From Giardia intestinalis (Eukaryota), in the NCBI GenBank assembly GCA_000002435.2, contig CM018792.1: 64,000 nucleotides of DNA. One strand, 5' to 3'. Of this stretch, positions 3,230-56,995 are shown one piece after another. The notes under the pieces are model-generated. The model worked only from the letters and a program-made list of their open reading frames with translations. It did not search any database and was not told where the DNA came from. The position numbers and the translations under genes were made by a program. Each line of letters starts with the position of its first letter. Position 1 is the first letter of the stretch.

Positions 3230-3265
3230 CCACTATCACACATTGTACAGCATTCACTACCCAAG
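3230..3265 (-). repeat. VSP inter-cassette spacer: poly(A) signal CTTGGGTAGTGAATGCTGTACAATG plus a short GTGATAGTG-like repeat.
   Basis: Seen in the sequence. It is homologous to the other spacers. Confidence 0.7.
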
Positions 3266-5032: not shown

Positions 5033-5099
5033 ACTCCACTATCACACATTATCACACTATCACCTTCTATCACACATTGTACAGCATTCACTACCTAAG
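5033..5099 (-). repeat. VSP inter-cassette spacer: poly(A) signal CTTAGGTAGTGAATGCTGTACAATG plus about four degenerate decamer repeats (cactatcaca / cattatcaca on the plus strand).
   Basis: Seen in the sequence. Confidence 0.7.
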
Positions 5100-7070: not shown

Positions 7071-7082
7071 TCACTACCTAAG
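7071..7082 (-). repeat. Minimal 12-nt spacer between the stop of unit 7083..8870 and the apparent ATG of unit 5100..7070. It is part of the conserved poly(A)-signal block.
   Basis: Seen in the sequence. My own base counting is off by one around here, so I used the track coordinates. Confidence 0.5.
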
Positions 7083-8870: not shown

Positions 8871-8992
8871 TCCTCCCTCAGCCTTTGTACATATCTCACT
8901 CCACTATCATACTATCACACACTATCACCCATTATCACCCTCTATCACACATTATCACCCATTATCATCACTCATAGCATTCACTACCTAAG
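8871..8992 (-). repeat. Longest VSP inter-cassette spacer (~120 nt). It holds the poly(A) signal CTTAGGTAGTGAATGCTATGAG and about eight degenerate decamer repeats (cattatcacc / ctctatcaca / cactatcata on the plus strand).
   Basis: Seen in the sequence. Confidence 0.75.
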
Positions 8993-10750: not shown

Positions 10751-10817
10751 ACTCCACTATCACACTATCACCCTCTATTACCCATTATCACACATTGTAT
10801 AGCATTCACTACCTAAG
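10751..10817 (-). repeat. VSP inter-cassette spacer, identical to 1429..1495.
   Basis: Seen in the sequence. Confidence 0.75.
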
Positions 10818-12887: not shown

Positions 12888-12900
12888 TAGAGGGTCCCCT
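12880..12900 (-). promoter_or_regulatory. Initiator-like element around the VSP start codon (gene-strand GACCCTCTAATGTTCC, matching the Giardia VSP Inr PyAATGTT).
   Basis: Read directly from the sequence. The Inr consensus is established knowledge for Giardia VSP genes. Confidence 0.45.
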
Positions 12901-35946: not shown

Positions 35947-38900
35947 CTAGATTGCAAAATTTGCCAGCTTCGGATTATTGAGGAGATTAAACGCTTGCGT
36001 GAACTCTGCCTTCATATGCTCAATATCCTCGTTCGCCTCCTGTTCCATCTTTGCCGATTCAGCCAAATACCCTGAAGCTAAAGAGTTCAGCCGCCTAGAG
36101 TTTTTAAGAGATTTGAGCAGCATCTTTACAGCGTCGTAAGAGCATCCAATGAGTAGTTGTACCTGCTCTGGCAAATGTGTAAGGACACCATCCTTGACGC
36201 CATTACCCATCGAATCTATCAATGGAAGTGTTACGTGGCCTAATTTATAATAAATCACAGGAGGAGACACAGCTCCGTCAACCTCAGTAGTAGCGCCGGA
36301 AGGCTTTTTAGGGTCTGCTGGCTGCTTCTTCTTGTCCTTATCCCTCAATGGAGAGGCTTGCTGAGTCTGGTCTCCAGACAAGCCTGCTTTGTACTTCAAC
36401 AAGTGCTGTAGAACATCGTCTAGATTTCGACATGTGAGAGTAGAAAGGATCTGAGGCTCCTCCAAAAGAATACTCTTCCCAGAAAAGGTATTGAAGAAAA
36501 TTTCGAGCTGAGTAGCTTCTGCAGTAATAAAATCAAGGCCGCTCGACGGCAAAATGGCGCTCTGGAGACAGCCGGTTTGTGCTGCCTCCTTTACTTTTCC
36601 ACTAGGAGGTTGGTTCTGGTGTGCAGTGGAAAAAGCTGCAGTAGGCTCTGTCTCAAACACGGCCTTTCCGGAGTTAATTGATGCTTCAATGTGCTGCATC
36701 ACTTGTACAAATGTGGCCGAACAGGACTTTATTTCTGACTCTGAAGAGACGCACGAATCTATCAGTATCTTGGTTGACTGTTCATCACCCAACAACTTCA
36801 CCGCCATAGAAGAGGATGGTACAGTGGTATTAGCGACACTCGCCGCAGATGATGCTCCGCTAGTTGGTCGCTTTTTGCCAGCTGCCTGTGCCCTGGCAGA
36901 CCCATCTATTGTGCTTCCAACAGGTGATAAGAAAGATAACAACTCTGAGATTTGCAAGGATGCACAATATGATACTCGGTTGTCGCCGGCCCACGATGGA
37001 TATAGAGATAGCAGAGTGGCTGGAACAGTCACAAGAAGGCAATTAGATATAGAGAGAAGTGTGAGTAGATCCTTATTAAGAGAGTTCAGAAGGCCCTGGC
37101 TGGTGCTAGTATACTCTGATAATGACGTTTTGATTTCCTGCTGCATGCCTAAGGCTTTTTCAGGAAACTTAATCAGAGCCGGCCTGAAACTATCATAAAT
37201 CTTAGCAAACCTCTGGGAAAAAGCGTCACAATTGTTTTTATATCCTTCCTTGTACACTTTCCACGCTCTCTCAATGGACCGATATGTGATCTCAAAGGAG
37301 CACGCACTAAATTGTTTGATTAATGTATCAAAAAGCTTGTCGCGTTGGACCATCAAGTCATGAAGCTGAGTGCGCGCTTCAGTAACTAGCTGGTTTATGC
37401 TGTCATAGGCTTCGCGGTAATAGTGCTGTAGCAACGAAAGCTCATCTTGAAAGGAGGAGTCTTTGAGGCGCTTAATCTTCATGGCAGGCAGAACCATCTG
37501 CTGCGTTGGCGAGGCAACGCATTCCTCCACAGGTGTGGCAGGCCGTAGATCCTTTTTTGAGGACTCTGCTGTCGAGACAATCTCCATTCCATCCAATTCG
37601 CGCGGCTCTATTACTGGTAGTTGCACAGTAGCCAGCTCGTCATCACGAGGCACATAGATGGGCTGAAAGAGGGTGTACGTGGAAAACATCTGCTCCAGTT
37701 CTGCCTGCAGCTGAGTGCAGATGTCACATTCGATAGAGGTATTGTAGAATGCTTTCATCCCAGGTTTGTAGTTAGTCGCTCGAGAGAAAAACTGTTGGAC
37801 CTTAGAGAAAATGGTGCTGGGGAGCTCTGAAATGTCTGCAGCATGTAGGTCGATAGTTCTGGACACTAGATTGGGTTGTTGTGTTACTAGTCGTTTTGGA
37901 GAAGAGCCTCTGGTGGGTGAAATGCGATAGCCAGGTGGAGAGCAAAATCGCTCTCGCACTTCTTCCTGATAGGTAAACGGTGTCTGCAAAACTGTGGCCG
38001 AGCACAGAATGTTCAGAACAGCTACGATCGCACCAATAAGTGCCCCTGCAAAAGAGTTAAATGCCTTCGACCTTTGCTTAAACAAGTCATAGGAAGTAAG
38101 AAACGTGTGATGCCTGTTAATAAGTGAGAGTTCAAATGGGTAGAATACGAATTGCAAAACAACCGTATAAGACAAGTAATAGGCTATTTGTTCAAGCTCG
38201 AAGCTAGCTTCTATTGCAGAAAGAGTATTAGAGAACACAGAATTTAGCGATGTCTTGTTTGGGCACTTGGCTGTCTGCATGAATATCTCTCGTATCGCAC
38301 TCATCCGTTCCTTGAATAAGAACAATCTATTTAGGGCCATTGTTTTAATGGAGATACACTTCTTCTTCATCGCTTCTACTGTTGACACCTTGGCAGAGTA
38401 TTCCGAATTAGCCAGCTTGACAGCCTGAGAAACGTTTTGCATAAGGTATTTGAAAAATAAGAGATCAGTGTGAAGACGACTGTAAGCCTCTTCTCGAAGC
38501 ATGCCTATCGTTGCAAGGAGCGACTGTGAGGCTGCTATAGCAGGATGGATCTTAACGGTGCTAGCAGCAGTATCAACTAAAGGCTGAACTTCTCCGTAAT
38601 TGTTCCGTAGCAAACTTACCGCTAAGTCTGCCACGGCAAAGTCAAAGGGGCCTGCACTATCAAGCCCAGACCATCCTATTGCTTGCTTTGTAAATGATTG
38701 CGTAATGCGCTCGGCAGAGTTTATGTCATTGTGAATGAGTGTTGAGAAGTTCTTTTTAAGGAGAACTTTGCATTCAGCAATAAACGCGTCACAGGCATAT
38801 ATGATGGTACGATCAGCTTGTTCTGGGAAAAGGAGTATGTTTTCATTAACGACTGCATCAAACTTTGTTTTGTATGCGCTTTCTGTGTGCTTAAAGAGTG

Positions 38901-41900
38901 GGTGGGATGCAGAAAGCTGTTTTCTTAGACGCAATGACGTTACTATTCCTCTGGATGAATCAAACGTTAATTCAACAAAGCGGTCCAACCGCTTGGCTGA
39001 TAAAAGGGCGAGAGACTCCTGGAACAGACGCGCCTCTCCTGTGGAGGATACTGTTTGCTTTCCTCTCGATGGGGCTCGAGCTCCAGATCCACTGGCAGAC
39101 CGAGACCCCGAAGGCGCTGCAGCACCTACAGGTACCTCTGGGGTGACGGTGGCATCCAGAATACGCTTCCGCAAAGACAGTATCGTAGACATTGCTCGGT
39201 TCAAAGTTCTGTACTCTACCCCAACATACTTGCTGCATCGCGATTCTATCTGTGCGACTTCTGAATGTAAAAGCTTCACAGTGTAGGGTACTAACGACGT
39301 GCGCAAGTCGTCAGAGATGGTGAGTATTCTGCGGATGTTGCCCATACTACGGGAAAGGATACTGGAGTACGTTTCTGCAAGACGAGACATTATAAGTGCA
39401 ATAACGTGAGTTGATATGTTTCCAAGGACAAGCTTTATTGCTAGACTATCAGAAGACGTATAGGAACGGCAGTCCATGATGATATCAGAGGTTGCATTTG
39501 CCATTGCATCTGCTTGCTGACTTTCTAAGCTGTGAGCTGCAGAGGTGGAGCCTAAAATATTGGGAGGACCCACCATTCTTTGTGACTTGGAGCTCCCTGG
39601 AGATATAATGGACCGATATCCAATCGAACATGCCAAGTCATTCTGCGACTCTTCAGCAGAGCTACATGGCCTTGCAAGGGTTAGAAGCTCGTCAATCCTA
39701 TCCTTATTGCGTGCTGCAAGAGAATTTTCTATTATCTGAGAACCCATGTTGGGAGATTGTCGATTGCCCACAGTGTTCTTACTAGAGAGACGCTTCTCAC
39801 TGTTGGCAGAAGCAGTCAGTCTCTTTCCTTGACAGCTCAATGCTACCACGGTCTGCTTCAGCTTTGTGAGAGTATCTCTAGCTCTGTCGTAGACGCAATC
39901 ACTAAACATCAAGTCGTCCACACTGACAGAGTACTTAGGTTGTGAAACTATTTTTTCAAAGTTTAGCAATGTTGGAGATTTAGTAAAGGCTTTCAACAAT
40001 GAAGACTTTGGCGGGGGTTGAGAGACGGCCTTTTTGGCATCTTTTGTGGAGGAAGGAGGTGCGGCTGCTGGGGGAGAAAGAAGTGGATTTGTTGAAACAG
40101 GCATATCTTGGCCAACCGTAAGGGGGACAATTTTTAGGTGCTCGAAGTCTAGGACTGTGTAGACGAGCTTTAGATATACGTCGAGTTCATCAAGGGGGCG
40201 TTCGTCTGGAACCTTGATTCCTGCAATGACCGCTTCTACATAGTCTGGAAGTTGTGTAGCCAACACGGGCTCGACAGGCCTTTCATCTTCATCATTTCCA
40301 TCCGGCCTTGATTCTGGCCTTGATGTACTGGTCTTTGATTTTGGTGCAGCCTTGGCCTTTTTAGCTGTCTCCTTTTCCCATTCTGCCAGTGCAGAAGCAT
40401 ACGCCTCTGTTGCTACAGAGTTGAGCTTCTGGAGGTAGGCGCTTCTGTAAGAAAGAATCGAGTCTTTGAAATCGGAAACGGCCCTATTGTATGCAATTCG
40501 TTCTCCGTCCTTGTAGAGTAGACGAAGAAGGGAGTGGTACAAAATCAATCGGAGGTCGGCAGGTAAGTTTATGAAGACGCACACACACGTCTTATCATAG
40601 GGGACCTCCTTGGAGAAGAGAACCTGCTGATATCTAGGAGCAATAAGACTAAAAATAAGAGGCTTTTGTTCAGGGACTTGTGCGGCTTGCTTCCCTTTAT
40701 CTTTCTCCTTATTGCCAGGCTCTGGTGATAAGAGCTGCGTAAACTCTGCCAGGACTTGAGCTGGGGTAGCTGCATCTTGAAAGTAGCTAAATCCGTATGC
40801 GCTAATATACGCCTTCATATCCACATCTTTATCAAAGTCAGGTGGCTCTAAAAGTAAATGGTGAGCTGAACTAGAATCTGACTCAGCGGCCTGGTCACTT
40901 GACAGTGGGCGGCCCTTAGAGGATGCCCGCTTCTTGTCCTGATTTGGTGTGGATGCTCGATTATTTGCTTTACTATCTGGCCTGACATTGGAAGGTGGAT
41001 GCTGCTCAATTTTGTTGGGAACCGTTTTGGAATCGTCCTGTATGTGCTCGTGATTTTGTAGATCACTAGCTGTTGCCAATCGATTGATAACACCAATGTC
41101 TGCACTGCGTTCGCTGATGAGATCAGTCAGTTCTGTTATTTGATACTCTGCGCAAGACCAGGGCTCGGCCAGGGAGCCCGTTGGAAAGGGAACATCTCGT
41201 AAAACAACTGCAGCGCAATCTACCAAATCATCAACAGTGACATCCTGAACAGGATTCTTCACTAGTGTATCATTGAACAAAGTAACAGCAGACAGTAAGG
41301 TCTCATCCCTGTCCGCTATTGTGCCAAATAAGGTTAGAAATGCAGACTCCTTCAGTTCTAGACTAAATATATCCAGTAGCGTGTGTAAAACTTTATTCCC
41401 AGTAGGCGATTGATTGGTCATGTTAACAACTGCCTCTTCGCGTTGAACGATGGCGTGTTCCAGCGCATCAAGTAGCTTCTTGGAAATTTGCTTGATCTTT
41501 TGGGCTTCGGAGATATCCCACACGTTCTTCACACGCGTGCTGATGTATTCCAAGCATTTGGTGGATCTACTCCAATCACGAGTAAACCGCTCCTCGATAG
41601 CTTTCAGTGCGTCATCACAGAGCCTGCACCAGTTGTCCTCTAACAGAGTTGTGTGTTTGACTGCCGTGTCGGCCGCTGCACAGAGAGATATAATACACGC
41701 GATAAAAAACGAGTTAGCGTGTACTGTTCTAATCAGGGTTTCCTCGATAAGAGATAAGCGAAGGTCCCACCTTTTCTTCCAGTGAGAGAGGGTTTCCGTT
41801 ATGAGAGCCCTAAGGTCATCACTCAGGATATCAAGCTGCTGCAATGATTCGAGTACATCCTTTGTGCTTTCGGCAAGTGACGTATAGACATCGTCGACTG

Positions 41901-43038
41901 TAAGCTTGAGTTCCTCTAGCCGGTACTGCACATCCTGTTTTCGCGGCAAGAAGACTGTCTTGACCAAGCGTACAGCCATATCCCTAGGATGCTCTGTTCT
42001 AATAGATAAGTCAGTAATGAAATTAAAAAGCGTTGATGAAAACTGTTGCAGTGCCGTATTAACGTCTTGGATGGCTGAAACCATCACCGGAGAAAACTCG
42101 TGCTCATGGTGAATGAAGAGTATATACTGTTCCACAAAGTCGTGAACAAGTTCCATTTTCCGTTGATGTATTATTCTACGGCACAATCCTCTACCATCCT
42201 CCATACACAACAGCGCTCTGTTATGACTGGATGTAATGAACATCAGCATTGAAGTACAGATCCGAGTGATTCGTTCCTCAACCTGGTGGACGATATCTCC
42301 AATGTATGCAAGGATTTCTCCCTCTGTGCAGCATGCATTACCAAGGCCCACCGAGAGCGTCTTAACAGCATCTGTAACGACCTCTCGAAGCATAGATGCT
42401 AGGCCATCGAAGCTTGAGCGAAGCTTTGTAAATACCATGATGACCTCGGCCTCTATTGTCTGCAGCGACGAATTCATTGCATAAGGCCGTACTCCTGGCT
42501 CTTTCACAAGTCGCAAAAACCGTGCGTCAACGCCTGACAAGTAATCCTGAAAAGTCATTCGCGCACGATCGAAATCGACATATAGGGACGAGAAGATTTT
42601 GTCAATATACTGAAGAAAGCTGTCAATCAGCGCTCGCCGTCGCTGCTCCAAAGAATCGGTATACCGTTGCATACGTGTGAGCTGCTGGCCTGCACTGTTA
42701 TCGTATTGTTCAGAAGGATTGGCTGGATCCTGAGTAGCTAAAAGCTCAAATTTCAGGAGAGACCTACCGCTTAGGATGGTGGGGGGCTTGCCTGCCATCG
42801 AATACGATAACCGCGGGGGCTCTGGAAGCGAGCTGTTGGGCTTGGACGGGTCAGGTCGGACAATTTTGAGGGTTGTTGATGAGTTGGCCCATTCCTTGAG
42901 AGCTTCGAAGCTCCGGGGAAACTGCTTAATCGCGAACGGTTGGCTCTGGGTGCGCACTCCATCCTTTCTGGGTTTGGAGAAGACCTTTTCACAGTGGAAG
43001 CTCCTGTGCAGGTTTGCCCCATCTGCAAAAAGATCCAT
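35947..43038 (-). CDS. Very large hypothetical protein (2363 aa).
   Basis: 7.1-kb uninterrupted ORF. I recognise no catalytic motifs. Confidence 0.65.
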   Translation of the reverse strand: MDLFADGANLHRSFHCEKVFSKPRKDGVRTQSQPFAIKQFPRSFEALKEWANSSTTLKIVRPDPSKPNSSLPEPPRLSYSMAGKPPTILSGRSLLKFELLATQDPANPSEQYDNSAGQQLTRMQRYTDSLEQRRRALIDSFLQYIDKIFSSLYVDFDRARMTFQDYLSGVDARFLRLVKEPGVRPYAMNSSLQTIEAEVIMVFTKLRSSFDGLASMLREVVTDAVKTLSVGLGNACCTEGEILAYIGDIVHQVEERITRICTSMLMFITSSHNRALLCMEDGRGLCRRIIHQRKMELVHDFVEQYILFIHHEHEFSPVMVSAIQDVNTALQQFSSTLFNFITDLSIRTEHPRDMAVRLVKTVFLPRKQDVQYRLEELKLTVDDVYTSLAESTKDVLESLQQLDILSDDLRALITETLSHWKKRWDLRLSLIEETLIRTVHANSFFIACIISLCAAADTAVKHTTLLEDNWCRLCDDALKAIEERFTRDWSRSTKCLEYISTRVKNVWDISEAQKIKQISKKLLDALEHAIVQREEAVVNMTNQSPTGNKVLHTLLDIFSLELKESAFLTLFGTIADRDETLLSAVTLFNDTLVKNPVQDVTVDDLVDCAAVVLRDVPFPTGSLAEPWSCAEYQITELTDLISERSADIGVINRLATASDLQNHEHIQDDSKTVPNKIEQHPPSNVRPDSKANNRASTPNQDKKRASSKGRPLSSDQAAESDSSSAHHLLLEPPDFDKDVDMKAYISAYGFSYFQDAATPAQVLAEFTQLLSPEPGNKEKDKGKQAAQVPEQKPLIFSLIAPRYQQVLFSKEVPYDKTCVCVFINLPADLRLILYHSLLRLLYKDGERIAYNRAVSDFKDSILSYRSAYLQKLNSVATEAYASALAEWEKETAKKAKAAPKSKTSTSRPESRPDGNDEDERPVEPVLATQLPDYVEAVIAGIKVPDERPLDELDVYLKLVYTVLDFEHLKIVPLTVGQDMPVSTNPLLSPPAAAPPSSTKDAKKAVSQPPPKSSLLKAFTKSPTLLNFEKIVSQPKYSVSVDDLMFSDCVYDRARDTLTKLKQTVVALSCQGKRLTASANSEKRLSSKNTVGNRQSPNMGSQIIENSLAARNKDRIDELLTLARPCSSAEESQNDLACSIGYRSIISPGSSKSQRMVGPPNILGSTSAAHSLESQQADAMANATSDIIMDCRSYTSSDSLAIKLVLGNISTHVIALIMSRLAETYSSILSRSMGNIRRILTISDDLRTSLVPYTVKLLHSEVAQIESRCSKYVGVEYRTLNRAMSTILSLRKRILDATVTPEVPVGAAAPSGSRSASGSGARAPSRGKQTVSSTGEARLFQESLALLSAKRLDRFVELTFDSSRGIVTSLRLRKQLSASHPLFKHTESAYKTKFDAVVNENILLFPEQADRTIIYACDAFIAECKVLLKKNFSTLIHNDINSAERITQSFTKQAIGWSGLDSAGPFDFAVADLAVSLLRNNYGEVQPLVDTAASTVKIHPAIAASQSLLATIGMLREEAYSRLHTDLLFFKYLMQNVSQAVKLANSEYSAKVSTVEAMKKKCISIKTMALNRLFLFKERMSAIREIFMQTAKCPNKTSLNSVFSNTLSAIEASFELEQIAYYLSYTVVLQFVFYPFELSLINRHHTFLTSYDLFKQRSKAFNSFAGALIGAIVAVLNILCSATVLQTPFTYQEEVRERFCSPPGYRISPTRGSSPKRLVTQQPNLVSRTIDLHAADISELPSTIFSKVQQFFSRATNYKPGMKAFYNTSIECDICTQLQAELEQMFSTYTLFQPIYVPRDDELATVQLPVIEPRELDGMEIVSTAESSKKDLRPATPVEECVASPTQQMVLPAMKIKRLKDSSFQDELSLLQHYYREAYDSINQLVTEARTQLHDLMVQRDKLFDTLIKQFSACSFEITYRSIERAWKVYKEGYKNNCDAFSQRFAKIYDSFRPALIKFPEKALGMQQEIKTSLSEYTSTSQGLLNSLNKDLLTLLSISNCLLVTVPATLLSLYPSWAGDNRVSYCASLQISELLSFLSPVGSTIDGSARAQAAGKKRPTSGASSAASVANTTVPSSSMAVKLLGDEQSTKILIDSCVSSESEIKSCSATFVQVMQHIEASINSGKAVFETEPTAAFSTAHQNQPPSGKVKEAAQTGCLQSAILPSSGLDFITAEATQLEIFFNTFSGKSILLEEPQILSTLTCRNLDDVLQHLLKYKAGLSGDQTQQASPLRDKDKKKQPADPKKPSGATTEVDGAVSPPVIYYKLGHVTLPLIDSMGNGVKDGVLTHLPEQVQLLIGCSYDAVKMLLKSLKNSRRLNSLASGYLAESAKMEQEANEDIEHMKAEFTQAFNLLNNPKLANFAI

Positions 43039-44317: not shown

Positions 44318-47300
44318 TTACGCTGCCATGAGAGATATGTTGTCAGCAGACGCGTTACCAAAGTGTGAGGTGGATCTGGAAAGGGACATGTTGCTTGTAG
44401 ACTTGCCGAGTGAGGACGATTTCATGCGTCCCGTGCCAGACTTACAGACGTAGATACGAAGAAGGAAGAAGATCAGTGCTGCAACTGCACCGACTAGAAG
44501 AATAGCAAAAATAGAGGTGAATGCAATGTTGACTGGTGCTGCGCGACGAGATTCGATTCTATTAACAACAAGAACACCATCCTTCGGCTCCGCGGACAGG
44601 GCTGCGGGGGAACGAATACAAATGCCGTCAAACTTTGTAAATCCGTTGTTACACATGCAGGTGTACTGGTCACCAGAGATACTGAGACACGTGTTAAGGG
44701 GCCCGCCACACATGCCCGCATCGTTCATCCTGCAATACTGGACGCTGCAGTCGGATCCTCCGAGCCCATTTTGGCAGGAGCACAACCCTCTCTTGCACTG
44801 TCCGCCATGTTTGCAGAACGAATCTTTAGTGCAGACGTTGCAAAATTGGCCTGTCGCATTGTCCTTACAGGAGAATGAATCCGGTGTGCTTTTTCGACTG
44901 GAGCACAGCGACCAAGAAGTGCAGGCCTCCATTAATATGTCGAAGACCGGCCGGTTGCGGAATGCAGAGTCAACCTTCCAGGTGCCCTTGACAACGCTGG
45001 CTGCGTCGCTGCTCCAACAGAACTCCAGGTTGCAGTCGTTGAAGAGCTGGATTGACACGTCTGCACCCTGGACATTACTGAGCCTGGCAGCACGGTAAGG
45101 CATCGGCGAAAGGAACGGGAGCCTTCCCTCGTCCATATACCAGTTGCTGCTGGGAGAGAACTTGAAGTATCCACTAGACCCTAGAGACTCCTGTCCATAT
45201 GTGTCCACTTTGCATAATTCAGACAGTGTGAAGTTCTGCACAATGCCTTGAGCCGCAAAAGCTTTATCAAAGACATTACTAAGAGAAGGATCAGCGAGGG
45301 ACATGACACCTGCAAAATCGGTAGCATAGAGGCAGCCTGTGCACGGCGTAGGCCTGGTCTTGCTAGTACTGAGGCCCCCGTACCAAGTGATTGTAGATCC
45401 AGACTTAGCAGTGCCACTGAAGGATAGAGTAGCCATAGAGTGCTTGGCAATGCTTGAGCTCTGGGCCCCAACAAACAGACCGACACCACACGTGGCATCT
45501 GAACTTGCCAGCGTTCCCTCAGCATAGCTATAGCGAATATCCATTAAGTTTGATATCCTTCCTGCATATCCTCCAACATTACAGGATTCTTCTGCTAAAC
45601 ATGTGACACCGTCCTGACACTTAACGTGTATATTCGCATACGACCAGGTCTTATCGCTATCGAAGGTGCCCACGCCTACTGTTGTAAAGCCAATGAATCC
45701 GCCAACGTTGTATGACCCTAGATTCCGAGAGACAGAAATCTTATTTGCAATCGAATAAGAAAGGTAGTGGCGTGACGTGTTTGAAAACCCGGTAAACCCG
45801 CCAATAGATGCATATCTACAATTGGTAATAGTTGCTCCAATGCTACTTGTGTCAGAATATGTATGGCGAACGGTGGAAAACTTGGTGTATCCAGATCCGC
45901 CGCCGATGTAAACATCGCCAACCTTATCGCTACTGCCTTCAACGGCTTTGCTGTAGACGATGTTTTCTCCTACCGCAAAGACAGTTCCCAAACGAGAGTT
46001 GATACTTATGCCTTGTATGCCACCGATGCCCGCCGTTATTCCGTGAGTCTTCACAGCGATCGTCTTATATGTGACGTAAGTGTTACGCATGCTTACATAA
46101 ACCAGGGACCCCGCAACGCCCCCAACAGCCACCACGTGCTCCAGCTCGGTATTCAGGGCTTTATCAGACATTACGTCGACGTTGTTTAACACAGCGCAGC
46201 AGTCGTGTATCTCACCACCCATCTCGTTAACAGTATTTGAAACTGTTCTATGCGCGCCGACAATGCCGCCAACCTTTGCCGAGTTCTTGGTATAGACCTT
46301 AAGAGTATGGATTCGTACGTACGAGTTGCCTATAGACACGAAGCTATCGGATCCTCCACGCATCGCATCTCCAACAAGGCCACCAAGATGGATCTCAGTT
46401 GTATCCGATGTATCTGCAATGGCTATTGTGTCGAGGTACACACGGCCCCCGATAATCCGCCCAGCCGAGAGGGTCCCCACAAGTCCTCCCGCAGCAACGT
46501 GGCCTTTTCCGACCACCGTAGGAGACGCATAGGAAACACAGTCGTTGATGGTCATCCTGTTCACGATGCCGGCGACGCCTCCCGTGTGACAAGCGGAGGT
46601 GGCGTCAGACGAACAATATACCACTGAAGACGATGACAATGAGCGCAGCCTGACGCTCTCAGTGGGAGTGTTGTCATGATTGACAATCCCTCCAACTACG
46701 CCTCCAACGTAGCACTTGGAAGTCTCAGTAGCCGAGCAAGAGACATTCGAGGTTGTGCTGTCTATGTGCTGGATCGCCTGACAAAGACCCACAGCACCTC
46801 CCACAAAAGCACTTCCGCTGATTACTTTGCCCTTAACTAGTGCTGCGGAGGCCACAGAATACCGGAAAACCGCATTCTGGTAGACAACACCAACAAGCCC
46901 ACCCACAGTCAAGTTAGTGACTGCCTGAGTGACCGTGGCGTCGACTATGCTCTGGCTACCAACGGCCAAGTCAGTGAAAGTGCACCCTCCTTGGACTCTC
47001 CCAATCGTTCCACCAACAGCAAAGTACTTCACAAAGATCGTGGTTGTCGTCAAGTTGACGTTGCTATAGAGGCCCGCACCAGCAACAGTATTGCACTTGT
47101 AGTCACCTACAGCACCCCCAATAAACAACCTCGCGTCTTTGTTGTTCCCCAATGAGGTTACGCTGAAGCTCCCCTCGACCCTAACAAGGTAGAAAACAGT
47201 GTCAATAACGCTACCTGCCACAATTCCGGCTCCCGTATCACTCTTTCCGCTAGGGTTAGCCATGGTTATACTTGCGTTGGCGACAAAAGTCACATCATAA

Positions 47301-47581
47301 ATTTGGGCCATATTCAGTTGAGCAAAAAAGCCAACGTTGCCCGTCAGCTCTGCGCTGTCAAACGTGATATTGCGGATGCTTTTTCCCTGACCGTCAAGAA
47401 CGCCTGTGAAGGAGCTCACCGGGGTCCAGGGCTGCGTGAGGACTATGTCATTTTTTAGACGGTAAAACCCGTTGAGATTCGTAGACATGGTACGCAGGTC
47501 CTCCTCTGTCATGACATCGACCACCTCCACCTCTACGGCACAGAGCATGAAAGCCAGAAGCCAGCAGAGGAGAAGTAACAT
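44318..47581 (-). CDS. Large type-I surface protein (1087 aa): a signal peptide, then many GG(L/V)VG-type (GLUG-like) repeats, C-terminal EGF-like Cys modules, a TM helix and a cytoplasmic tail.
   Basis: MLLLLCWLLAFMLCAVE leader. Repeated HxGGVAGIVN / GGLVGxxxxG units. CxCxxGfxGxxC EGF-like motifs. TM segment IAFTSIFAILLVGAVAALIFFLL. Confidence 0.6.
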   Translation of the reverse strand: MLLLLCWLLAFMLCAVEVEVVDVMTEEDLRTMSTNLNGFYRLKNDIVLTQPWTPVSSFTGVLDGQGKSIRNITFDSAELTGNVGFFAQLNMAQIYDVTFVANASITMANPSGKSDTGAGIVAGSVIDTVFYLVRVEGSFSVTSLGNNKDARLFIGGAVGDYKCNTVAGAGLYSNVNLTTTTIFVKYFAVGGTIGRVQGGCTFTDLAVGSQSIVDATVTQAVTNLTVGGLVGVVYQNAVFRYSVASAALVKGKVISGSAFVGGAVGLCQAIQHIDSTTSNVSCSATETSKCYVGGVVGGIVNHDNTPTESVRLRSLSSSSVVYCSSDATSACHTGGVAGIVNRMTINDCVSYASPTVVGKGHVAAGGLVGTLSAGRIIGGRVYLDTIAIADTSDTTEIHLGGLVGDAMRGGSDSFVSIGNSYVRIHTLKVYTKNSAKVGGIVGAHRTVSNTVNEMGGEIHDCCAVLNNVDVMSDKALNTELEHVVAVGGVAGSLVYVSMRNTYVTYKTIAVKTHGITAGIGGIQGISINSRLGTVFAVGENIVYSKAVEGSSDKVGDVYIGGGSGYTKFSTVRHTYSDTSSIGATITNCRYASIGGFTGFSNTSRHYLSYSIANKISVSRNLGSYNVGGFIGFTTVGVGTFDSDKTWSYANIHVKCQDGVTCLAEESCNVGGYAGRISNLMDIRYSYAEGTLASSDATCGVGLFVGAQSSSIAKHSMATLSFSGTAKSGSTITWYGGLSTSKTRPTPCTGCLYATDFAGVMSLADPSLSNVFDKAFAAQGIVQNFTLSELCKVDTYGQESLGSSGYFKFSPSSNWYMDEGRLPFLSPMPYRAARLSNVQGADVSIQLFNDCNLEFCWSSDAASVVKGTWKVDSAFRNRPVFDILMEACTSWSLCSSRKSTPDSFSCKDNATGQFCNVCTKDSFCKHGGQCKRGLCSCQNGLGGSDCSVQYCRMNDAGMCGGPLNTCLSISGDQYTCMCNNGFTKFDGICIRSPAALSAEPKDGVLVVNRIESRRAAPVNIAFTSIFAILLVGAVAALIFFLLRIYVCKSGTGRMKSSSLGKSTSNMSLSRSTSHFGNASADNISLMAA

Positions 47582-47720: not shown

Positions 47721-50700
47721 CTAACTAAAGTTCTCTTTGTAGCCGCTCATCAGACGCTTCAGACGCTCTTCAATCCCCTTCTCTACAGATTGTACTGCTT
47801 GTAATGTGTCTGTCAACGATGTTCTTATTTGTGCCCCGATGGGCTGATTCGAATGGATCGGGGTCGCAATTTTGGGTTCGTGATCAAGCGCAGCTGCTTT
47901 GACAGCCTCCTGCGCAGAAACTATTCCCAGCTCTGCTACTCGCGCTACATCAGGTGCCATCACCCGAAGCCGCTCTAGGCCAGCCATTGTGTATCCTGTT
48001 TGATATCCCTGCATAGTATCGTCCTTGTCTTCAGTATTAGTTGCTTTAATTGCACCGCTAATCATTCGTGAAGCAGTGTCCACAATGCTGCTCACTGGGA
48101 CCTCCTGTGCAGCAGGAGCGGGAGGAAGCTCGGCCGCAGTTTGAGGTAGGGTCACAGTGTACTTGTTATAGTCTGTAATATAGTTGTCAGCACTTGGTCC
48201 AGTAGTACGCGCACGAATTGCCTTAGTGAGGCACGCCTGAATGTCGTCCATGCAGTCTTTGACTCTTCTCTCGTCCGTCGTCAAGCCGGCTACAGTCCCC
48301 TTCTTACGGATTGCTTCCAGGACATCTTCTACTAAACCCAGCACGTGGTCTAATAGAGCAAGCGACTCCTCTCGTGTCCCCGGTTGTTCAGTAGGCTTTT
48401 GCATTTCGTGGATGGCATGAATGGCGAATGCACTGCCTGATTCTGCGCTTCTACGCATAAAATCTGCTGTTGCTTGCTCAAGGGGAACACTAGTTACATT
48501 TGTTTGATATGCGGGAAATACAACTGTTTCGGAGCCATGATCTGCAACCGCACGCTCCAGGTTCTGGAATGCAACCCGAAGAGAGCTAACGTCCAATTTT
48601 ATTTCCTGCAAAGTAGCGGTAGCAGAGGCCAGCTGCTTTTTTAAACTGTCCAGCTCTGCTTGGGATGTAAGATTCTGATGCTGCAGCTTTTTGTGCGACT
48701 CCTTTATCTGTCTCACCTCGCTGACCTTTCCTGAACGCTCCTGTTTGAGTACCGTGTGCTTCTTTTCGATCTCTTTGAATAATAGCATCTTGGCCGATAG
48801 TTCTCTTTCCTGGCGCTGAAGCTGGCGAAGCTTTATTTCGTTCTTGAGCCTTGCGTCCACTGCTTTACGGAGTTCATTCACGAGAGACTTCACCTGTGCG
48901 TCTTCCAAAGAGCGGGACGCCGCTTGCTTGTTGTAATTCAACGCCGACGCTATGGCTTCTTCGGCTTGCCCCTTTATTTCGGCGTAAAGTTTCTTTTCTA
49001 ACTGGCTGATATCCTCCTCGTGAGAGTTCAAAAGCCTCTTTATGTCAGCCACGGGGATTGCACTCTTGGCTAGAGATCCCGGTGCTGTGGTTGTTGTCCC
49101 AAGCGAAGCCGAGATTATCTTCCTTATGTCAGTAGCACGCTTCTGTGCGGCCATCATGTGTAATTCAGACACCAGAAGGGCCTCCTGTCCTTGACACTCT
49201 AGGTCTGTAATGCGCGCTAGAAGCTCGTCTTTGTAGAGAGTGGCGCGCTCTAGTGCTTGTGTCGCTGTTGTTAGCTTGTCTTTTAGAGCCTGAAGGTCCG
49301 ACTGGGAGGATGGCTGAGGTAGATCAAGCGCAAGAGAGTCAATGGTGCTTACCACATCGTCCTGCTCCGACGTCTTATCCGTCATCTTTGCTTTTGGGGC
49401 GTCTAACCTTGCATTGGCCCTGAGGGTCTCGAGAAACCTATTTGCTAGCATAGCTGCTGTTTCTTGCTGACGGCTAGCATCAGAAAGCTGAGTTTTTGGG
49501 GAGATAACGACATTACCAACAGTCTGTAACGAAACTTGATCTTCCGAAAGGCCTGTGTTAGAGGTTGCAAGAGCAGACTCTGCATGTAAAGAATTGAATA
49601 CGCTGGGGCTTATATTTGTTTCAACAACAGGATCTAGGGACACTATGTTGTGCTTTACCGATATTATATGCGCAGTATTGTCGACACCGCTGGAAGCCAG
49701 AGCAGCAGGGAACGCATCGGTGCTCATTGTGTAAACAGGACTATGTGCATCATGAACATACGCCTGGCCTGTGAGCTCATTCACCTCTTGGACGCCATAC
49801 ATAGCGGGGTCTACAACGTGCGTGATACTCGGCGGTTGGTCAAACAGCTCCACCTCTGGTCTCAAGGAAGTGGATGCTGGGGATACAAAACCTGCTGGTC
49901 TGGGCTGGGGCACTTGGGGAGGTGTCTTTTGCTCATGCATGGTGCTGTTAAATGAAGGATATGACCCGTCATAATGGGGCTCAGACGTCTTTGTGTACTT
50001 GTTTGAGTGCTTATCTTCATAGAGCATGCCCATGTCTGGTTTCATATCATCATCTTTAGTCCCTAAGTCTTGAGCGACAGGTAAAAGGGGAGAAGAGATC
50101 GAGGGGCGAGAGCGGATAGTAGCATCCAGCGCCTTTTGCAGTTCAGAGTCTATGAGATCTGTTACTTCTATAGGGGGGTTGACTGGCGGATGCATGCGAT
50201 TCCTAGCTACCTTGGTTGTCTCAAGAGAAGTCTTGCAAATATGCAACATTGCTAAGAGTGTTTCAGCGTATTGACCAGACTCGCTGGAGCCATTAAACAT
50301 TCCAATGAGGACGGGCCTAGCGCGAGCCAGAATGGGGAGTACAAGCTGAGTTATTGGGGCTGTAGGAATAGGGTTCGCGCTGATGAAGAACTCAACTGTC
50401 TGCCCACTTGATGCTATATCCAGCAGCCCAGTTGTTAGCGCATGAAGAACTGGCCCAGGTGTAGAGTCAATAAGGGTGACAGTAGAAATTGCCCCATTGG
50501 CTTGATTGTAAAGCTGTATTTTGAAGCACATGGTAGAGCTGCTAGGGGCTGGCTCCGCTACACCAGTTGTTTCTCTCTCAGTATAGTTCTTGCTAAGATT
50601 GCGGACATATTCCAAAAGCGTTAAGCTTTGGGCCTTGTCGGCCAGCTGGACCTTTGTAATCTTCATGTTGTCTATTGTCGACTCAAAATCATCTTCTGGT

Positions 50701-51098
50701 GCAAAGTGATCGATAATGACATCATCAAAAAGCTCAAACGCTGAAAAGGTGACCGAGTGGGATGAGTCAACTAACCCAGTTACCTCTGTGAGCAAGGCCT
50801 CAAGTATACCGGCCTGATAAGAAGAAAGCCTGGTCTTGCCCGTCCCCTGGGTCCCCATTACCAGGATTGTGGACGACTCCCCACTGGACAGTGTTCCCAC
50901 GGTGGTCCGAGCAAGATTGTCCACAAATGCCTTGCTTTCATATGCTTCCACGATTGTGCTCATAGAGAATTGCTTCCGCCGTCCATCCTTGCCGCAGAGA
51001 AAAAGAGACGTGCCATCTACCTCTAGATATCTGGGTCGCGGGTCGGAAAGAACAGCGATTGCTTTAGTGGCGTACATTTTTAAAACATCGCCTGCCAC
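47721..51098 (-). CDS. P-loop coiled-coil protein with a divergent, kinesin-like N-terminal domain that lacks canonical switch motifs.
   Basis: ILVMGTQGTGKT resembles kinesin AYGQTGSGKT. VTFSAFELFDDVIIDHF resembles VSYLEIYNE..DLL. TVTLIDSTPG sits where DLAGSE would be. I do not see SSRSH. The C-terminal half is a long heptad-rich coiled coil. Confidence 0.4.
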   Translation of the reverse strand: MAGDVLKMYATKAIAVLSDPRPRYLEVDGTSLFLCGKDGRRKQFSMSTIVEAYESKAFVDNLARTTVGTLSSGESSTILVMGTQGTGKTRLSSYQAGILEALLTEVTGLVDSSHSVTFSAFELFDDVIIDHFAPEDDFESTIDNMKITKVQLADKAQSLTLLEYVRNLSKNYTERETTGVAEPAPSSSTMCFKIQLYNQANGAISTVTLIDSTPGPVLHALTTGLLDIASSGQTVEFFISANPIPTAPITQLVLPILARARPVLIGMFNGSSESGQYAETLLAMLHICKTSLETTKVARNRMHPPVNPPIEVTDLIDSELQKALDATIRSRPSISSPLLPVAQDLGTKDDDMKPDMGMLYEDKHSNKYTKTSEPHYDGSYPSFNSTMHEQKTPPQVPQPRPAGFVSPASTSLRPEVELFDQPPSITHVVDPAMYGVQEVNELTGQAYVHDAHSPVYTMSTDAFPAALASSGVDNTAHIISVKHNIVSLDPVVETNISPSVFNSLHAESALATSNTGLSEDQVSLQTVGNVVISPKTQLSDASRQQETAAMLANRFLETLRANARLDAPKAKMTDKTSEQDDVVSTIDSLALDLPQPSSQSDLQALKDKLTTATQALERATLYKDELLARITDLECQGQEALLVSELHMMAAQKRATDIRKIISASLGTTTTAPGSLAKSAIPVADIKRLLNSHEEDISQLEKKLYAEIKGQAEEAIASALNYNKQAASRSLEDAQVKSLVNELRKAVDARLKNEIKLRQLQRQERELSAKMLLFKEIEKKHTVLKQERSGKVSEVRQIKESHKKLQHQNLTSQAELDSLKKQLASATATLQEIKLDVSSLRVAFQNLERAVADHGSETVVFPAYQTNVTSVPLEQATADFMRRSAESGSAFAIHAIHEMQKPTEQPGTREESLALLDHVLGLVEDVLEAIRKKGTVAGLTTDERRVKDCMDDIQACLTKAIRARTTGPSADNYITDYNKYTVTLPQTAAELPPAPAAQEVPVSSIVDTASRMISGAIKATNTEDKDDTMQGYQTGYTMAGLERLRVMAPDVARVAELGIVSAQEAVKAAALDHEPKIATPIHSNQPIGAQIRTSLTDTLQAVQSVEKGIEERLKRLMSGYKENFS

Positions 51099-55873: not shown

Positions 55874-56995
55874 ATGATATACTTCGTCTTCTGTTCAGCA
55901 GACTGTAACTTAGCTTGCTCGTATTGTGGCAACTCGCCCGAGGATCTCTGCATGCCTGCCAAGCCAACCTATGAGTTCGAGAAGCTCGCGGAGTTTATTG
56001 CCGGAGACGATGATCCTGTCTTCGTGTTTTACGGTGGAGAGCCCTTGCTGAACCGTCCCTATGTATGCCGCGTCATGGATCGCTTTCCAGACGCCACTTT
56101 TGTGCTGCAATCCAACTGCACGTTGCTCTATGATTTGCCCACCCCCTACCTTAAGAGATTCGCCTGCATACTGCTTTCCATTGATGGCCGCCCGGAAACG
56201 GTTGATGCTTATCGGGGAGAGGGCGTCTACGAAAGGATTGAGAAGAACATCAACGACGCCCGCTCTCGAGGATATACTGGACCGATCGTGGCTCGTATGG
56301 CGTGCTCGTTGAAGACAGACATATATAAGGATGTCCACTACCTCATGTATGAATCTCCGCTGAAGTTTGACGCTGTTTATTGGCAGCTAGATGTCGAGTG
56401 GGACTCTCCCATGAATGCCCGTTGGGGGAACTTCGAGGTCTGGATGCGTCAAACATATATGCCAGGGGTTGACAGGCTCTTCAAGGAATGGCGCGAGGGT
56501 CTGGAGCGTGGAGATGTGAAGGTCATTGTCCCGTTCAACACAATTACAGAGGCATACTTGGATTGCAATGCCATCGATGGTGCAGATCCTTCTGTCCCCA
56601 GACGCGGATACTTGCGCTGCTCAGCTGGGCACAAGGCGGTTAGCATCACAACTGATGGCCGAGTGCTGGCGTGTCCTGTTGCAAGCGGGGAATGCTGGAA
56701 CAACCTCGGAAAGCTAAGTGACTCTCGGACCTCTCTCTTGGGTCAGAAGTCTGTTGGAGGAATGTGTGACGTCTGTGAGGTCCGAGAGGTTTGCGGGGGT
56801 CGCTGCTTATACGCAAACCAAACCCTCTGGTGGGGTGATGATGGACATGCCTTAGTGTGTGAGCTCAACAAGCACCTTATCGCCCTTTGTGAATCGCACT
56901 CTGACAGGGTCCAAACGATGCTTGCAACTGGAAAGATCTCATGGGCTCAGTTCCACTTTCCGAGCGAGCGCTACAGTCTGGAGATCATCCCCTGA
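55874..56995 (+). CDS. Radical SAM enzyme with a C-terminal SPASM/twitch Cys cluster (anaerobic sulfatase-maturase-like).
   Basis: CNLACSYC (CX3CX2C), GGEPLL, and the C-terminal CDVCEVREVCGGRC (CX2CX5CX3C). Confidence 0.7.
   Translation: MIYFVFCSADCNLACSYCGNSPEDLCMPAKPTYEFEKLAEFIAGDDDPVFVFYGGEPLLNRPYVCRVMDRFPDATFVLQSNCTLLYDLPTPYLKRFACILLSIDGRPETVDAYRGEGVYERIEKNINDARSRGYTGPIVARMACSLKTDIYKDVHYLMYESPLKFDAVYWQLDVEWDSPMNARWGNFEVWMRQTYMPGVDRLFKEWREGLERGDVKVIVPFNTITEAYLDCNAIDGADPSVPRRGYLRCSAGHKAVSITTDGRVLACPVASGECWNNLGKLSDSRTSLLGQKSVGGMCDVCEVREVCGGRCLYANQTLWWGDDGHALVCELNKHLIALCESHSDRVQTMLATGKISWAQFHFPSERYSLEIIP

What the first reader, a model, noticed from the sequence alone, without database searches (positions are those of the whole stretch)
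55874..56995. Bacterial-type radical SAM/SPASM enzyme between IleRS and RPS10: a candidate lateral gene transfer
CNLACSYC (CX3CX2C) and GGEPLL, together with a C-terminal CX2CX5CX3C auxiliary cluster, define an anSME- or SPASM-like radical SAM maturase. This family is overwhelmingly prokaryotic. Its presence among core eukaryotic housekeeping genes suggests an acquired anaerobic-metabolism gene. Its substrate is unknown. Possibilities are sulfatase maturation, peptide modification and cofactor maturation.
Basis: partly seen in the sequence, partly recalled or inferred. Interest (0 to 1): 0.55.

Follow-up and report, generated by a model that had tools for sequence, protein, structure and literature searches.

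The report
Archaeal-type radical SAM enzyme in Giardia
This is an intact, already annotated Giardia gene for a three-iron-sulfur-cluster radical SAM enzyme of an archaeal (not bacterial) family that many anaerobic protists share; what it acts on is still unknown.

Summary
The ORF and its motifs are real: 55874-56995 (+) encodes 373 aa with CX3CX2C, GGEPLL and a seven-cysteine SPASM motif. The protein is identical to Giardia intestinalis WB XP_001705220.1, annotated "AstB/chuR-related protein". It is a full-length member of NCBIfam TIGR04084 (AF0577 family; 332 bits against a cut-off of 225). It is not an anaerobic sulfatase maturase (36 bits against 349).

"Bacterial-type" is wrong. The 80 best relatives among 185,579 prokaryotic species genomes are all archaeal, with Asgard lineages marginally closest. 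The only bacterial copy seen nests inside the eukaryotic clade.

It is not a recent Giardia acquisition. Orthologues occur across Fornicata and two unclassified eukaryotes, in an order largely matching the species tree. Further copies are in parabasalids, Anaeramoeba, Archamoebae, Blastocystis and Euglena. Codon usage matches the neighbouring genes.

The fold is closest to anSME and CteB but lacks a leader-peptide recognition domain. Archaeal homologues have no conserved neighbour or adjacent peptide. This points to a stand-alone modifier of a protein or metabolite encoded elsewhere.

One speculative reading is an oxygen-independent deoxyhypusine hydroxylase. It has only phyletic support.

Verdict: a known gene, correctly spotted, with its origin mis-assigned and its function open.

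The parts
55874..56995 (+). Complete intronless coding sequence (373 codons plus stop) of the TIGR04084/AF0577-family radical SAM/SPASM protein, identical to XP_001705220.1 / UniProt A8BRX1
   Evidence: ORF. TIGR04084 E=3.3e-99, profile positions 1-347 of 347. Exact match to the public Giardia protein. AlphaFold2 model with pLDDT 89.5 and pTM 0.91.
55904..55927 (+). CX3CX2C motif (C11, C15, C18), which binds the radical SAM [4Fe-4S] cluster. It lies only 10 residues from the N-terminus, leaving no room for an RRE/leader-binding domain.
   Evidence: Invariant in A1. Pfam PF04055 covers residues 9-139. The profile aligns to CteB residues 101-443, that is, after CteB's N-terminal domain.
56033..56050 (+). 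GGEPLL, the 'GGE' SAM-binding motif
   Evidence: G54, G55, E56 and P57 are invariant and L58 is at least 90% conserved.
56618..56674 (+). First half of the SPASM motif: C249-x12-G262-x4-C267 (pattern CX9-15GX4C)
   Evidence: C249, G252, G262, C267 and P268 are invariant. TIGR04085 SPASM domain at residues 249-316, 27.8 bits against a cut-off of 27.
56765..56806 (+). Second half of the SPASM motif: C298-x2-C301-x5-C307-x3-C311, followed by the GGRCL signature
   Evidence: C298, C301, C307, G308, G309, R310, C311 and L312 are invariant. The motif aligns to the CX2CX5CX3C of CteB and anSME.
56858..56860 (+). C329, the seventh SPASM cysteine. It is replaced by Asp in the Metallosphaera, Vulcanisaeta and Thermocladium homologues.
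   Evidence: Alignment A1, columns 360-370.
56981..56992 (+). Family-specific C-terminal end E-I-I-P. E370, I372 and P373 are invariant and always the last residues.
   Evidence: Also seen in every additional eukaryotic and archaeal sequence read. Role unknown.

Best explanation
The gene encodes a functional, stand-alone radical SAM/SPASM enzyme of the archaeal TIGR04084 (AF0577) family. Giardia inherited it vertically from at least the common ancestor of Fornicata and the two unclassified eukaryotes TZLM1-RC and GEM-RC1. Its ultimate source is archaeal.

Inferred mechanism, by homology to anSME and CteB: the N-terminal CX3CX2C [4Fe-4S] cluster reductively cleaves SAM to a 5'-deoxyadenosyl radical. 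That radical abstracts a hydrogen atom from an unactivated C-H of the substrate. The two SPASM auxiliary clusters then take up the second electron or hold the substrate. One auxiliary cluster has only three conserved Cys ligands, as in CteB, and so probably has an open or non-Cys site.

Three observations bear on the substrate. The protein has no leader-peptide recognition domain. Archaeal homologues have no conserved neighbouring gene. They also have no conserved adjacent small ORF. The substrate is therefore most likely a protein side chain (or a metabolite) encoded elsewhere in the genome, not a dedicated RiPP precursor and not a sulfatase.

Shown here: family membership, motif conservation, fold, phylogenetic distribution and lack of operon context. 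Inferred: the chemistry and the substrate class.
For: Family: TIGR04084 scores 332.1 bits against a cut-off of 225 over the whole profile. One Giardia assembly already names the protein 'AF0577 family'.

Motifs: all three cluster motifs are invariant across 18 diverse homologues.

Fold: the AF2 model has pLDDT 89.5. The best PDB matches are anSMEcpe (TM 0.67-0.70), then CteB, TigE and SuiB. The family profile hits CteB at 1.3e-29 and anSME at 2.8e-25, and it aligns only to the post-RRE part of CteB.

Archaeal affinity: the top 80 genome hits are all archaeal. Identity of the aligned eukaryotic proteins to Asgard sequences reaches at best about 41-53% (Giardia 44.6%), against maxima of about 38-50% for the other archaeal groups.

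Old residency: the clade of Fornicata, the Leptospiraceae MAG and the two unclassified eukaryotes has 96-97.5% bootstrap support. Diplomonads have 87.5-95%, and the branching order largely follows the species tree. Codon usage and GC3 are indistinguishable from the neighbouring genes.

Stand-alone: in 83 archaeal loci the commonest neighbour family occurs in only 6. No conserved short ORF lies within 800 bp. No domain fusions were seen in longer homologues.
Against: No experimental data on any member of the family were found. 'TIGR04084' returned no papers, and the 'AF0577' hits were unrelated accession strings. The chemistry therefore rests on homology at 16-21% identity to characterised enzymes.

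Absence of a neighbouring partner does not prove a protein substrate. A small-molecule substrate is equally compatible.

The trees are neighbour-joining on corrected p-distances, not maximum likelihood. Deep nodes are unresolved: eukaryote monophyly has 35-43% bootstrap support.

Expression of the Giardia gene was not examined.
Confidence: 0.8

Rival explanations
1. It is the missing oxygen-independent deoxyhypusine hydroxylase. It would abstract H from C2 of the 4-aminobutyl group of deoxyhypusine on a/eIF5A. The radical would be oxidised through the auxiliary clusters and quenched by water to give hypusine. In archaea and anaerobic protists this would replace the O2- and di-iron-dependent DOHH.
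For: No DOHH orthologue exists in any archaeal genome, yet hypusine is found in Sulfolobus, Acidianus, Thermoproteus and Pyrodictium (PMC5178350; PMC6105217). TIGR04084 members occur in Sulfolobales, Thermoproteales and Desulfurococcales. E. histolytica lacks DOHH (PMC7909649). T. vaginalis also has no separate DOHH, its DHS being claimed as bifunctional (cited in PMC6105217). Both organisms carry TIGR04084 orthologues (P0236 and P0239). The enzyme is RRE-less like anSME, which acts on a protein. Giardia has DHS (PMC3663545).
Against: The support is purely phyletic. No aIF5A or DHS gene lies within 10 kb in 83 archaeal loci (regex test; clustering). No radical SAM protein appeared among the 31 partners in the S. 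solfataricus aIF5A pull-down, though that purification was aerobic. The family is also present in Thermoplasmatota, Archaeoglobi and some methanogens, and Euryarchaeota are reported to carry mainly deoxyhypusine. Euglena and a fungal MAG also carry the gene. I do not know of a radical SAM hydroxylation that uses water. I could not check whether Giardia lacks DOHH.
Confidence: 0.1
2. It is an anaerobic sulfatase-maturating enzyme (anSME/AtsB/ChuR) that converts Cys or Ser to formylglycine in a sulfatase. This was one of the substrates the first reader proposed.
For: The best structural match is anSMEcpe (TM 0.67-0.70). The historical annotation is 'AstB/chuR-related'. Like anSME, it has no RRE domain.
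Against: The anSME equivalog TIGR03942 scores 35.9 bits against a cut-off of 349.45. Identity to anSMEcpe is 16-18%. The family profile matches CteB better than anSME. E. histolytica has an orthologue but only Zn-dependent, not formylglycine-dependent, sulfatases. No sulfatase recurs next to the gene in 83 archaeal loci.
Confidence: 0.03
3. It is a RiPP maturase (sactipeptide/ranthipeptide-type thioether synthase or similar) acting on a dedicated small precursor peptide.
For: The next-best NCBIfam hits are peptide maturases: PapB 55 bits, QhpD 48, CbpB 47 and DynA 44. The best profile hit in the PDB is the sactisynthase CteB. The seven-Cys pattern without the eighth upstream Cys is as in CteB, whose open auxiliary-cluster site binds the substrate Cys (structural knowledge of CteB, from memory).
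Against: All those scores are far below their cut-offs of 340-453. There is no RRE: the CX3CX2C motif starts at residue 11. No conserved short ORF lies within 800 bp in 83 archaeal loci. There is no transporter, protease or other RiPP cluster gene: the commonest neighbour family, an ABC-type ATPase, occurs in only 6 of 83 loci. The gene appears as a single isolated gene in each of the 83 archaeal loci examined, which span many archaeal phyla, and that is atypical for RiPP clusters.
Confidence: 0.1
4. Origin rival: the gene descends vertically from the Asgard-archaeal ancestor of eukaryotes and was lost in most aerobic lineages. Under this view it was not laterally transferred into anaerobic protists.
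For: Asgard sequences (Njord-, Heimdall-, Hod- and Thorarchaeota) are among the best prokaryotic hits. For most of the eukaryotic sequences they also show the highest best identity. With the widest sampling, all eukaryotes form one clade. The gene occurs in at least four eukaryotic supergroup-level lineages: Metamonada, Amoebozoa, Stramenopiles and Euglenozoa.
Against: Eukaryote monophyly has only 35-43% bootstrap support, and the sister group is unstable. When the all-eukaryote clade was recovered, its sister was Asgard-only or mostly Asgard in about half of the replicates. The identity advantage of Asgard over other archaea is only 1-5 points. Inside clade E2 the branching conflicts with the species tree: Entamoeba groups with Blastocystis, and other Archamoebae with parabasalids. 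That is the usual signature of eukaryote-to-eukaryote transfer among anaerobes (compare PMC4217692).
Confidence: 0.15

Closest known systems
NCBIfam TIGR04084 (rSAM_AF0577) radical SAM/SPASM family, named after Archaeoglobus fulgidus AF0577
   Same: Full-length match above the curated cut-off. It shares all invariant residues, including the three Cys motifs and the C-terminal E-[IV]-IP end. Length is about 350-375 aa.
   Different: Nothing structural. The Giardia and other diplomonad sequences have a 10-15 residue insertion before C249 (A1 columns 270-290). The family itself has no assigned function.
Anaerobic sulfatase-maturating enzyme anSMEcpe (PDB 4K36-4K39; TIGR03942; COG0641 AslB/AtsB/ChuR)
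   Same: Closest solved fold, at TM 0.67-0.70. It has the same architecture of a radical SAM partial barrel plus a SPASM domain, and no N-terminal RRE. It acts on a protein rather than a leader-bearing peptide.
   Different: Identity is 16-18%. The equivalog HMM fails by a factor of ten. The query lacks the eighth upstream Cys that, from memory, completes auxiliary cluster I in anSME. There is no link to formylglycine-type sulfatases.
CteB sactipeptide thioether synthase (PDB 5WGG/5WHY) and related thioether-forming maturases (PapB, QhpD)
   Same: Best sequence-profile match in the PDB, at 1.3e-29. It has the same seven-Cys SPASM pattern. PapB and QhpD are the next-best NCBIfam hits after TIGR04084.
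   Different: CteB has an N-terminal RRE of about 100 residues that the query lacks. CteB and PapB sit in RiPP gene clusters next to a precursor peptide, and none is conserved here.
Deoxyhypusine hydroxylase (DOHH/Lia1), as a possible functional analogue only
   Same: Only a complementary phyletic pattern. DOHH is absent from archaea, E. histolytica and T. vaginalis, all of which have TIGR04084 members.
   Different: DOHH is an unrelated protein: a HEAT-repeat, di-iron, O2-dependent enzyme. No direct evidence links the query to eIF5A.

Membership tests
Radical SAM superfamily (PF04055) | CX3CX2C cluster motif near the N-terminus and a match to the Pfam model above the gathering score | tested here: met
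   C11-x3-C15-x2-C18 is invariant. PF04055 scores 36.4 bits against 29.5.
Radical SAM superfamily (PF04055) | GGE-type SAM-binding motif and a partial (beta/alpha)6 barrel | tested here: met
   GGEP 54-57 is invariant. The AF2 model shows six alternating strands and helices over residues 2-172 and superposes on radical SAM structures.
SPASM subfamily (TIGR04085) | Seven-Cys motif CX9-15GX4C / CX2CX5CX3C / C, located C-terminal to the barrel | tested here: met
   C249-x12-G262-x4-C267, C298-x2-C301-x5-C307-x3-C311 and C329. TIGR04085 scores 27.8 bits against 27, only marginally above the cut-off.
SPASM subfamily (TIGR04085) | Two auxiliary [4Fe-4S] clusters actually bound | not testable with these tools
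   Requires anaerobic purification with Fe/S quantification, EPR or a crystal structure.
TIGR04084 (AF0577 family) | Whole-protein score above the curated cut-off, end-to-end alignment | tested here: met
   332.1 bits against 225. Residues 5-373 align to profile positions 1-347 of 347.
Anaerobic sulfatase maturase (TIGR03942) | Score above the equivalog cut-off | tested here: not met
   35.9 bits against 349.45.
Anaerobic sulfatase maturase (TIGR03942) | Co-occurrence with formylglycine-dependent sulfatases | tested here: inconclusive
   The Giardia genome could not be searched. For the E. histolytica orthologue, the literature says all five sulfatases are Zn-dependent and not formylglycine-type. 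No sulfatase recurs among the archaeal neighbours.
RiPP maturase (sacti-/ranthipeptide type) | N-terminal RRE/leader-binding domain | tested here: not met
   Only 10 residues precede the CX3CX2C motif. The profile aligns to CteB only from residue 101 onward.
RiPP maturase (sacti-/ranthipeptide type) | Adjacent precursor peptide and cluster genes | tested here: not met
   There is no conserved short ORF and no neighbour family in more than 6 of 83 archaeal loci.
Recent bacterial-to-Giardia lateral transfer | Nearest relatives are bacterial, the gene is absent from related eukaryotes, and composition is deviant | tested here: not met
   Nearest prokaryotes are archaeal. Orthologues occur throughout Fornicata and other anaerobic eukaryotes. 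GC3 and codon preference match the neighbouring genes.

The most novel reading that the evidence does not exclude
TIGR04084 is the long-sought oxygen-independent deoxyhypusine hydroxylase of archaea and anaerobic eukaryotes. Under this reading the Giardia gene completes hypusine on eIF5A without O2. The enzyme would either be an Asgard-derived ancestral solution that DOHH later replaced in aerobic eukaryotes, or have been acquired from archaea by anaerobes that lost DOHH.
Probability: 0.1. Interest if true: 0.85.

Novelty: already known. Interest (0 to 1): 0.35.

Why it matters
As it stands, this is an annotated Giardia gene of a catalogued but uncharacterised family, so the finding adds little.

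Two points could matter. First, the family is archaeal, with Asgard sequences marginally closest. It is also shared by Metamonada, Archamoebae, Blastocystis and Euglena. That makes it a useful test case for distinguishing Asgard inheritance followed by loss in aerobes from gene sharing among anaerobic protists.

Second, it is a conserved enzyme that appears as a single isolated gene in the archaeal loci examined. It has no human homologue in the searches run here, and it occurs in three major gut or urogenital parasites (Giardia, Entamoeba, Trichomonas).

If its substrate is a housekeeping protein such as eIF5A, it would close a decades-old gap in the archaeal hypusine pathway. It would also provide a parasite-specific drug target.

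Tried and rejected
(1) GDGT ring synthases. The archaeal distribution resembled that of ring-bearing tetraether producers. However, GrsA and GrsB are B12-binding radical SAM enzymes without auxiliary clusters (PMC13459092). Tes (PDB 7TOL) matches the family profile only over the radical SAM core, at 3.7e-7. Rejected.

(2) Operon context. Searches examined three archaeal or bacterial genomes. One search clustered all ORFs of at least 70 aa within 6 kb in 83 loci. No neighbour family occurred in more than 6 loci. Only lineage-local associations appeared: LeuRS in Sulfolobales, the S13-S4-S11-RpoD cluster in DHVE2, and a GNAT in some Asgard archaea.

(3) Adjacent precursor peptide. One search found only clusters confined to close relatives. 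They look like off-frame translations of neighbouring genes.

(4) aIF5A or DHS neighbours. The regex search found none. The patterns may be too strict.

(5) aIF5A interactome of S. solfataricus. It contains no radical SAM protein.

(6) Domain fusions in longer homologues. These have only low-complexity N-terminal tails.

(7) Compositional test for recent transfer. Negative.

(8) Literature searches for 'TIGR04084', 'AF0577', 'AstB chuR', and SPASM combined with protist names found nothing on this gene.

(9) Deep phylogeny. Neighbour-joining could not resolve eukaryote monophyly or the archaeal sister group. No maximum-likelihood software was available.
Full report
**1. Observation**

The window is Giardia intestinalis. 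Its first 13 kb carry VSP genes (PF03302). The protein studied is identical over its whole length to XP_001705220.1 / UniProt A8BRX1 of isolate WB, annotated "AstB/chuR-related protein".

One search shows one uninterrupted ORF at 55874-56995 (+) of 373 codons. It lies 100 bp downstream of a 1165-aa class I tRNA synthetase and 60 bp upstream of eS10. A Sec24 homologue follows (Pfam).

Beyond what was reported, the protein has the complete seven-cysteine SPASM signature: C249-x12-G262-x4-C267, then C298-x2-C301-x5-C307-x3-C311, then C329. These positions are invariant or nearly so in an 18-sequence alignment of eukaryotes, archaea and one bacterium.

**2. What it is**

Pfam recognises only the generic Radical_SAM and Fer4_12 domains. 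NCBIfam places the protein end to end in TIGR04084, the AF0577 family of radical SAM/SPASM proteins. The score is 332 bits against a curated cut-off of 225, at E=3.3e-99.

Every functionally named SPASM family scores 55 bits or less against cut-offs of 340-855. These include PapB, QhpD, CbpB, DynA, anSME and AhbD. anSME (TIGR03942) reaches only 35.9 of 349 bits.

An AlphaFold2 model built from the family alignment is confident, with pLDDT 89.5 and pTM 0.91. Its best matches among solved structures are anSMEcpe (TM 0.67-0.70, 16-18% identity), then CteB, TigE, SuiB and SkfB. A family profile searched against PDB sequences ranks CteB first (1.3e-29) and anSME second (2.8e-25). It aligns to CteB only from residue 101, that is, without CteB's N-terminal leader-recognition domain.

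The query has just ten residues before its CX3CX2C motif. Architecturally it is therefore an RRE-less, anSME-like three-cluster enzyme. Only seven SPASM cysteines are conserved, the CteB pattern. This suggests that one auxiliary cluster has a free or non-cysteine coordination site. In three Thermoproteota homologues (Metallosphaera, Vulcanisaeta, Thermocladium) the seventh Cys is Asp. All family members end in an invariant E-[IV]-I-P, whose role is unknown.

**3. Where it comes from**

The label "bacterial-type" does not hold. A scan of one genome for each of 185,579 bacterial and archaeal species found at least 385 relatives. The best 80 are all archaeal: Njord-, Heimdall-, Thor-, Hod- and Promethearchaeota, Bathyarchaeia, Nitrososphaeria, Thermoplasmatota, Archaeoglobi, Sulfolobales, Thermoproteales and a few methanogens.

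The only bacterial sequence seen is from a Leptospiraceae MAG (P0008). Its genomic context is genuinely leptospiral. It nests inside the eukaryotic clade (83-91% bootstrap with Fornicata). It therefore looks like a transfer out of eukaryotes, not a donor.

Three database searches progressively revealed eukaryotic orthologues in the following groups:
- Diplomonads: Giardia assemblages A, B and E, G. muris, Hexamita, Spironucleus.
- Other Fornicata: Kipferlia, Carpediemonas, Ergobibamus.
- Two unclassified eukaryotes, TZLM1-RC and GEM-RC1. From memory I take these to be skoliomonad metamonads; NCBI taxonomy lists TZLM1-RC as unclassified.
- Anaeramoebae: Anaeramoeba ignava and A. flamelloides.
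- Parabasalids: Trichomonas vaginalis, Tritrichomonas, Histomonas.
- Archamoebae: Mastigamoeba, Pelomyxa, Entamoeba histolytica, E. invadens, E. marina.
- Others: Blastocystis, a Euglena gracilis transcript, and a fungal MAG.

Neighbour-joining trees (356-359 columns, Kimura-corrected distances, 200 bootstraps) give two robust eukaryotic clades:
- E1 contains Fornicata, the Leptospiraceae MAG, TZLM1-RC and GEM-RC1 (96-97.5%).
- E2 contains all the other eukaryotic sequences (83-97%).

Inside E1 the order largely follows the species tree: Giardia, then G. muris, then other diplomonads, then Carpediemonas-like organisms, then TZLM1-RC/GEM-RC1.

Monophyly of all eukaryotes is recovered with the widest sampling, but at only 35-43% bootstrap. 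The archaeal sister group is unstable. For most eukaryotic sequences Asgard sequences give the highest best identity (about 41-53%; Giardia 44.6%). The margin over other archaea is only 1-5 points.

The Giardia gene's GC (0.528), GC3 (0.603) and codon preference are the same as those of IleRS next door and lie within the range of the window's other genes.

In summary, the gene is of archaeal ancestry. It has been in the Giardia lineage since at least the common ancestor of Fornicata and TZLM1-RC/GEM-RC1. Two scenarios remain open: a single ancient acquisition or Asgard inheritance followed by losses, or transfer among anaerobes. The branching inside E2 conflicts with organismal relationships. 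That fits the eukaryote-to-eukaryote exchange proposed for Entamoeba and parabasalids (PMC4217692).

**4. How it probably works**

Two steps follow from the conserved motifs and established radical SAM chemistry. First, the CX3CX2C cluster binds and reductively cleaves SAM. Second, the resulting 5'-deoxyadenosyl radical abstracts a hydrogen atom from the substrate. By analogy with anSME and CteB, the SPASM clusters then accept the second electron or ligate the substrate. This part is inference.

I looked for clues to the substrate in the archaeal homologues.
- In 83 loci, no neighbouring gene family recurs in more than six.
- No conserved small ORF flanks the gene.
- Longer homologues carry no fused domains.

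The family appears as a single isolated gene in archaeal loci from many phyla. It therefore behaves like a stand-alone housekeeping modifier rather than a RiPP cluster component.

Sulfatase maturation is unlikely for two reasons. The anSME model fails. E. histolytica keeps an orthologue although its five sulfatases are Zn-dependent rather than formylglycine-dependent (PMC6801973).

My best-supported statement is therefore a three-cluster radical SAM enzyme that oxidises or cross-links an unactivated C-H. The target would be a protein, or possibly a metabolite, encoded elsewhere. The exact reaction is unknown.

**5. A speculative lead**

Radical SAM enzymes often serve as anaerobic counterparts of O2-dependent enzymes. 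One O2-dependent step shared by archaea and eukaryotes still has no known archaeal enzyme: hydroxylation of deoxyhypusine on a/eIF5A.

The literature read here establishes the following:
- No DOHH orthologue exists in archaea, although Sulfolobus, Acidianus, Thermoproteus and Pyrodictium contain hypusine (PMC5178350; PMC6105217; PMC8153317).
- E. histolytica lacks DOHH (PMC7909649).
- T. vaginalis has no separate DOHH (cited).

TIGR04084 is present in all these groups.

Several observations count against the idea:
- No aIF5A or DHS gene lies near the gene in 83 loci.
- No radical SAM protein appeared in the (aerobic) Sulfolobus aIF5A pull-down.
- The family also occurs in euryarchaeal groups reported to carry mainly deoxyhypusine, and in Euglena and a fungal MAG.
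- I know of no precedent for radical SAM hydroxylation with water.

I rate the idea at about 10% and list the experiments that would settle it.

**6. Comparison with the known, and verdict**

The gene is a bona fide member of TIGR04084 and of the SPASM subclass. It works like anSME or CteB in architecture but fails the membership tests for both. It is not a recent or bacterial transfer.

The exact protein and its family assignment are already in public databases. One Giardia assembly even labels it "AF0577 family". I found no paper that discusses it.

Novelty is therefore "already known". Interest is modest (0.35) and rests on the open function and the archaeal or Asgard-like ancestry shared by many anaerobic protists.

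Noticed in passing
L004:8001-9095 (Leptospiraceae MAG JAGRNA010000018.1; protein P0008): This is the only bacterial member of the family seen. It is 46% identical to the Giardia protein and sits among genuinely leptospiral genes (Lepto_8Cys, DUF1574). It branches inside the Fornicata clade (83-91% bootstrap), which suggests a eukaryote-to-bacterium transfer.
   Followed up: partly
window 1496-12887 (- strand): There is a run of ORFs on the minus strand with strong negative GC skew. The three tested (3266-4786, 5100-7070, 10818-12887) are variant-specific surface protein genes (PF03302). This confirms the window is Giardia.
   Followed up: partly
window 12900-14300: A GC-rich stretch (63% in the 12001-14000 bin) lies upstream of the last VSP gene. 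It contains only low-complexity overlapping ORFs on both strands and no evident gene.
   Followed up: no
L005-L007 (Metallosphaera) and L062 (Ca. Aramenus): gene at 8001-9056 / 10001-11050, LeuRS about 45-50 bp downstream: In Sulfolobales the family member sits directly upstream of leucyl-tRNA synthetase on the same strand. In Giardia it sits directly downstream of isoleucyl-tRNA synthetase. This is probably coincidence, but it is curious.
   Followed up: no
L014, L023, L025, L039 (DHVE2 / Aciduliprofundum): In these loci the gene lies immediately downstream, on the same strand, of the ribosomal S13-S4-S11-RpoD cluster (gap about 30 bp). This is a lineage-local link to the translation apparatus.
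   Followed up: no
proteins P0271 (fungal MAG Cirrosporium novae-zelandiae, 763-kb contig) and P0292 (Euglena gracilis transcript): Family members are found in organisms that are not obligate anaerobes. Both fall in eukaryotic clade E2. They could reflect contamination, transfer or facultative anaerobiosis.
   Followed up: partly
alignment A1, position of C329 (window 56858-56860): The seventh SPASM cysteine is replaced by Asp in the Metallosphaera, Vulcanisaeta and Thermocladium homologues. This is reminiscent of the Asp ligand of an auxiliary cluster in PqqE (from memory).
   Followed up: no
window 17695-21738, 35947-43038, 44318-47581, 47721-51077 (all - strand): Four very long ORFs (1087-2363 aa) have no Pfam match at E<=1e-5. 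This is typical of Giardia's highly divergent proteins.
   Followed up: no
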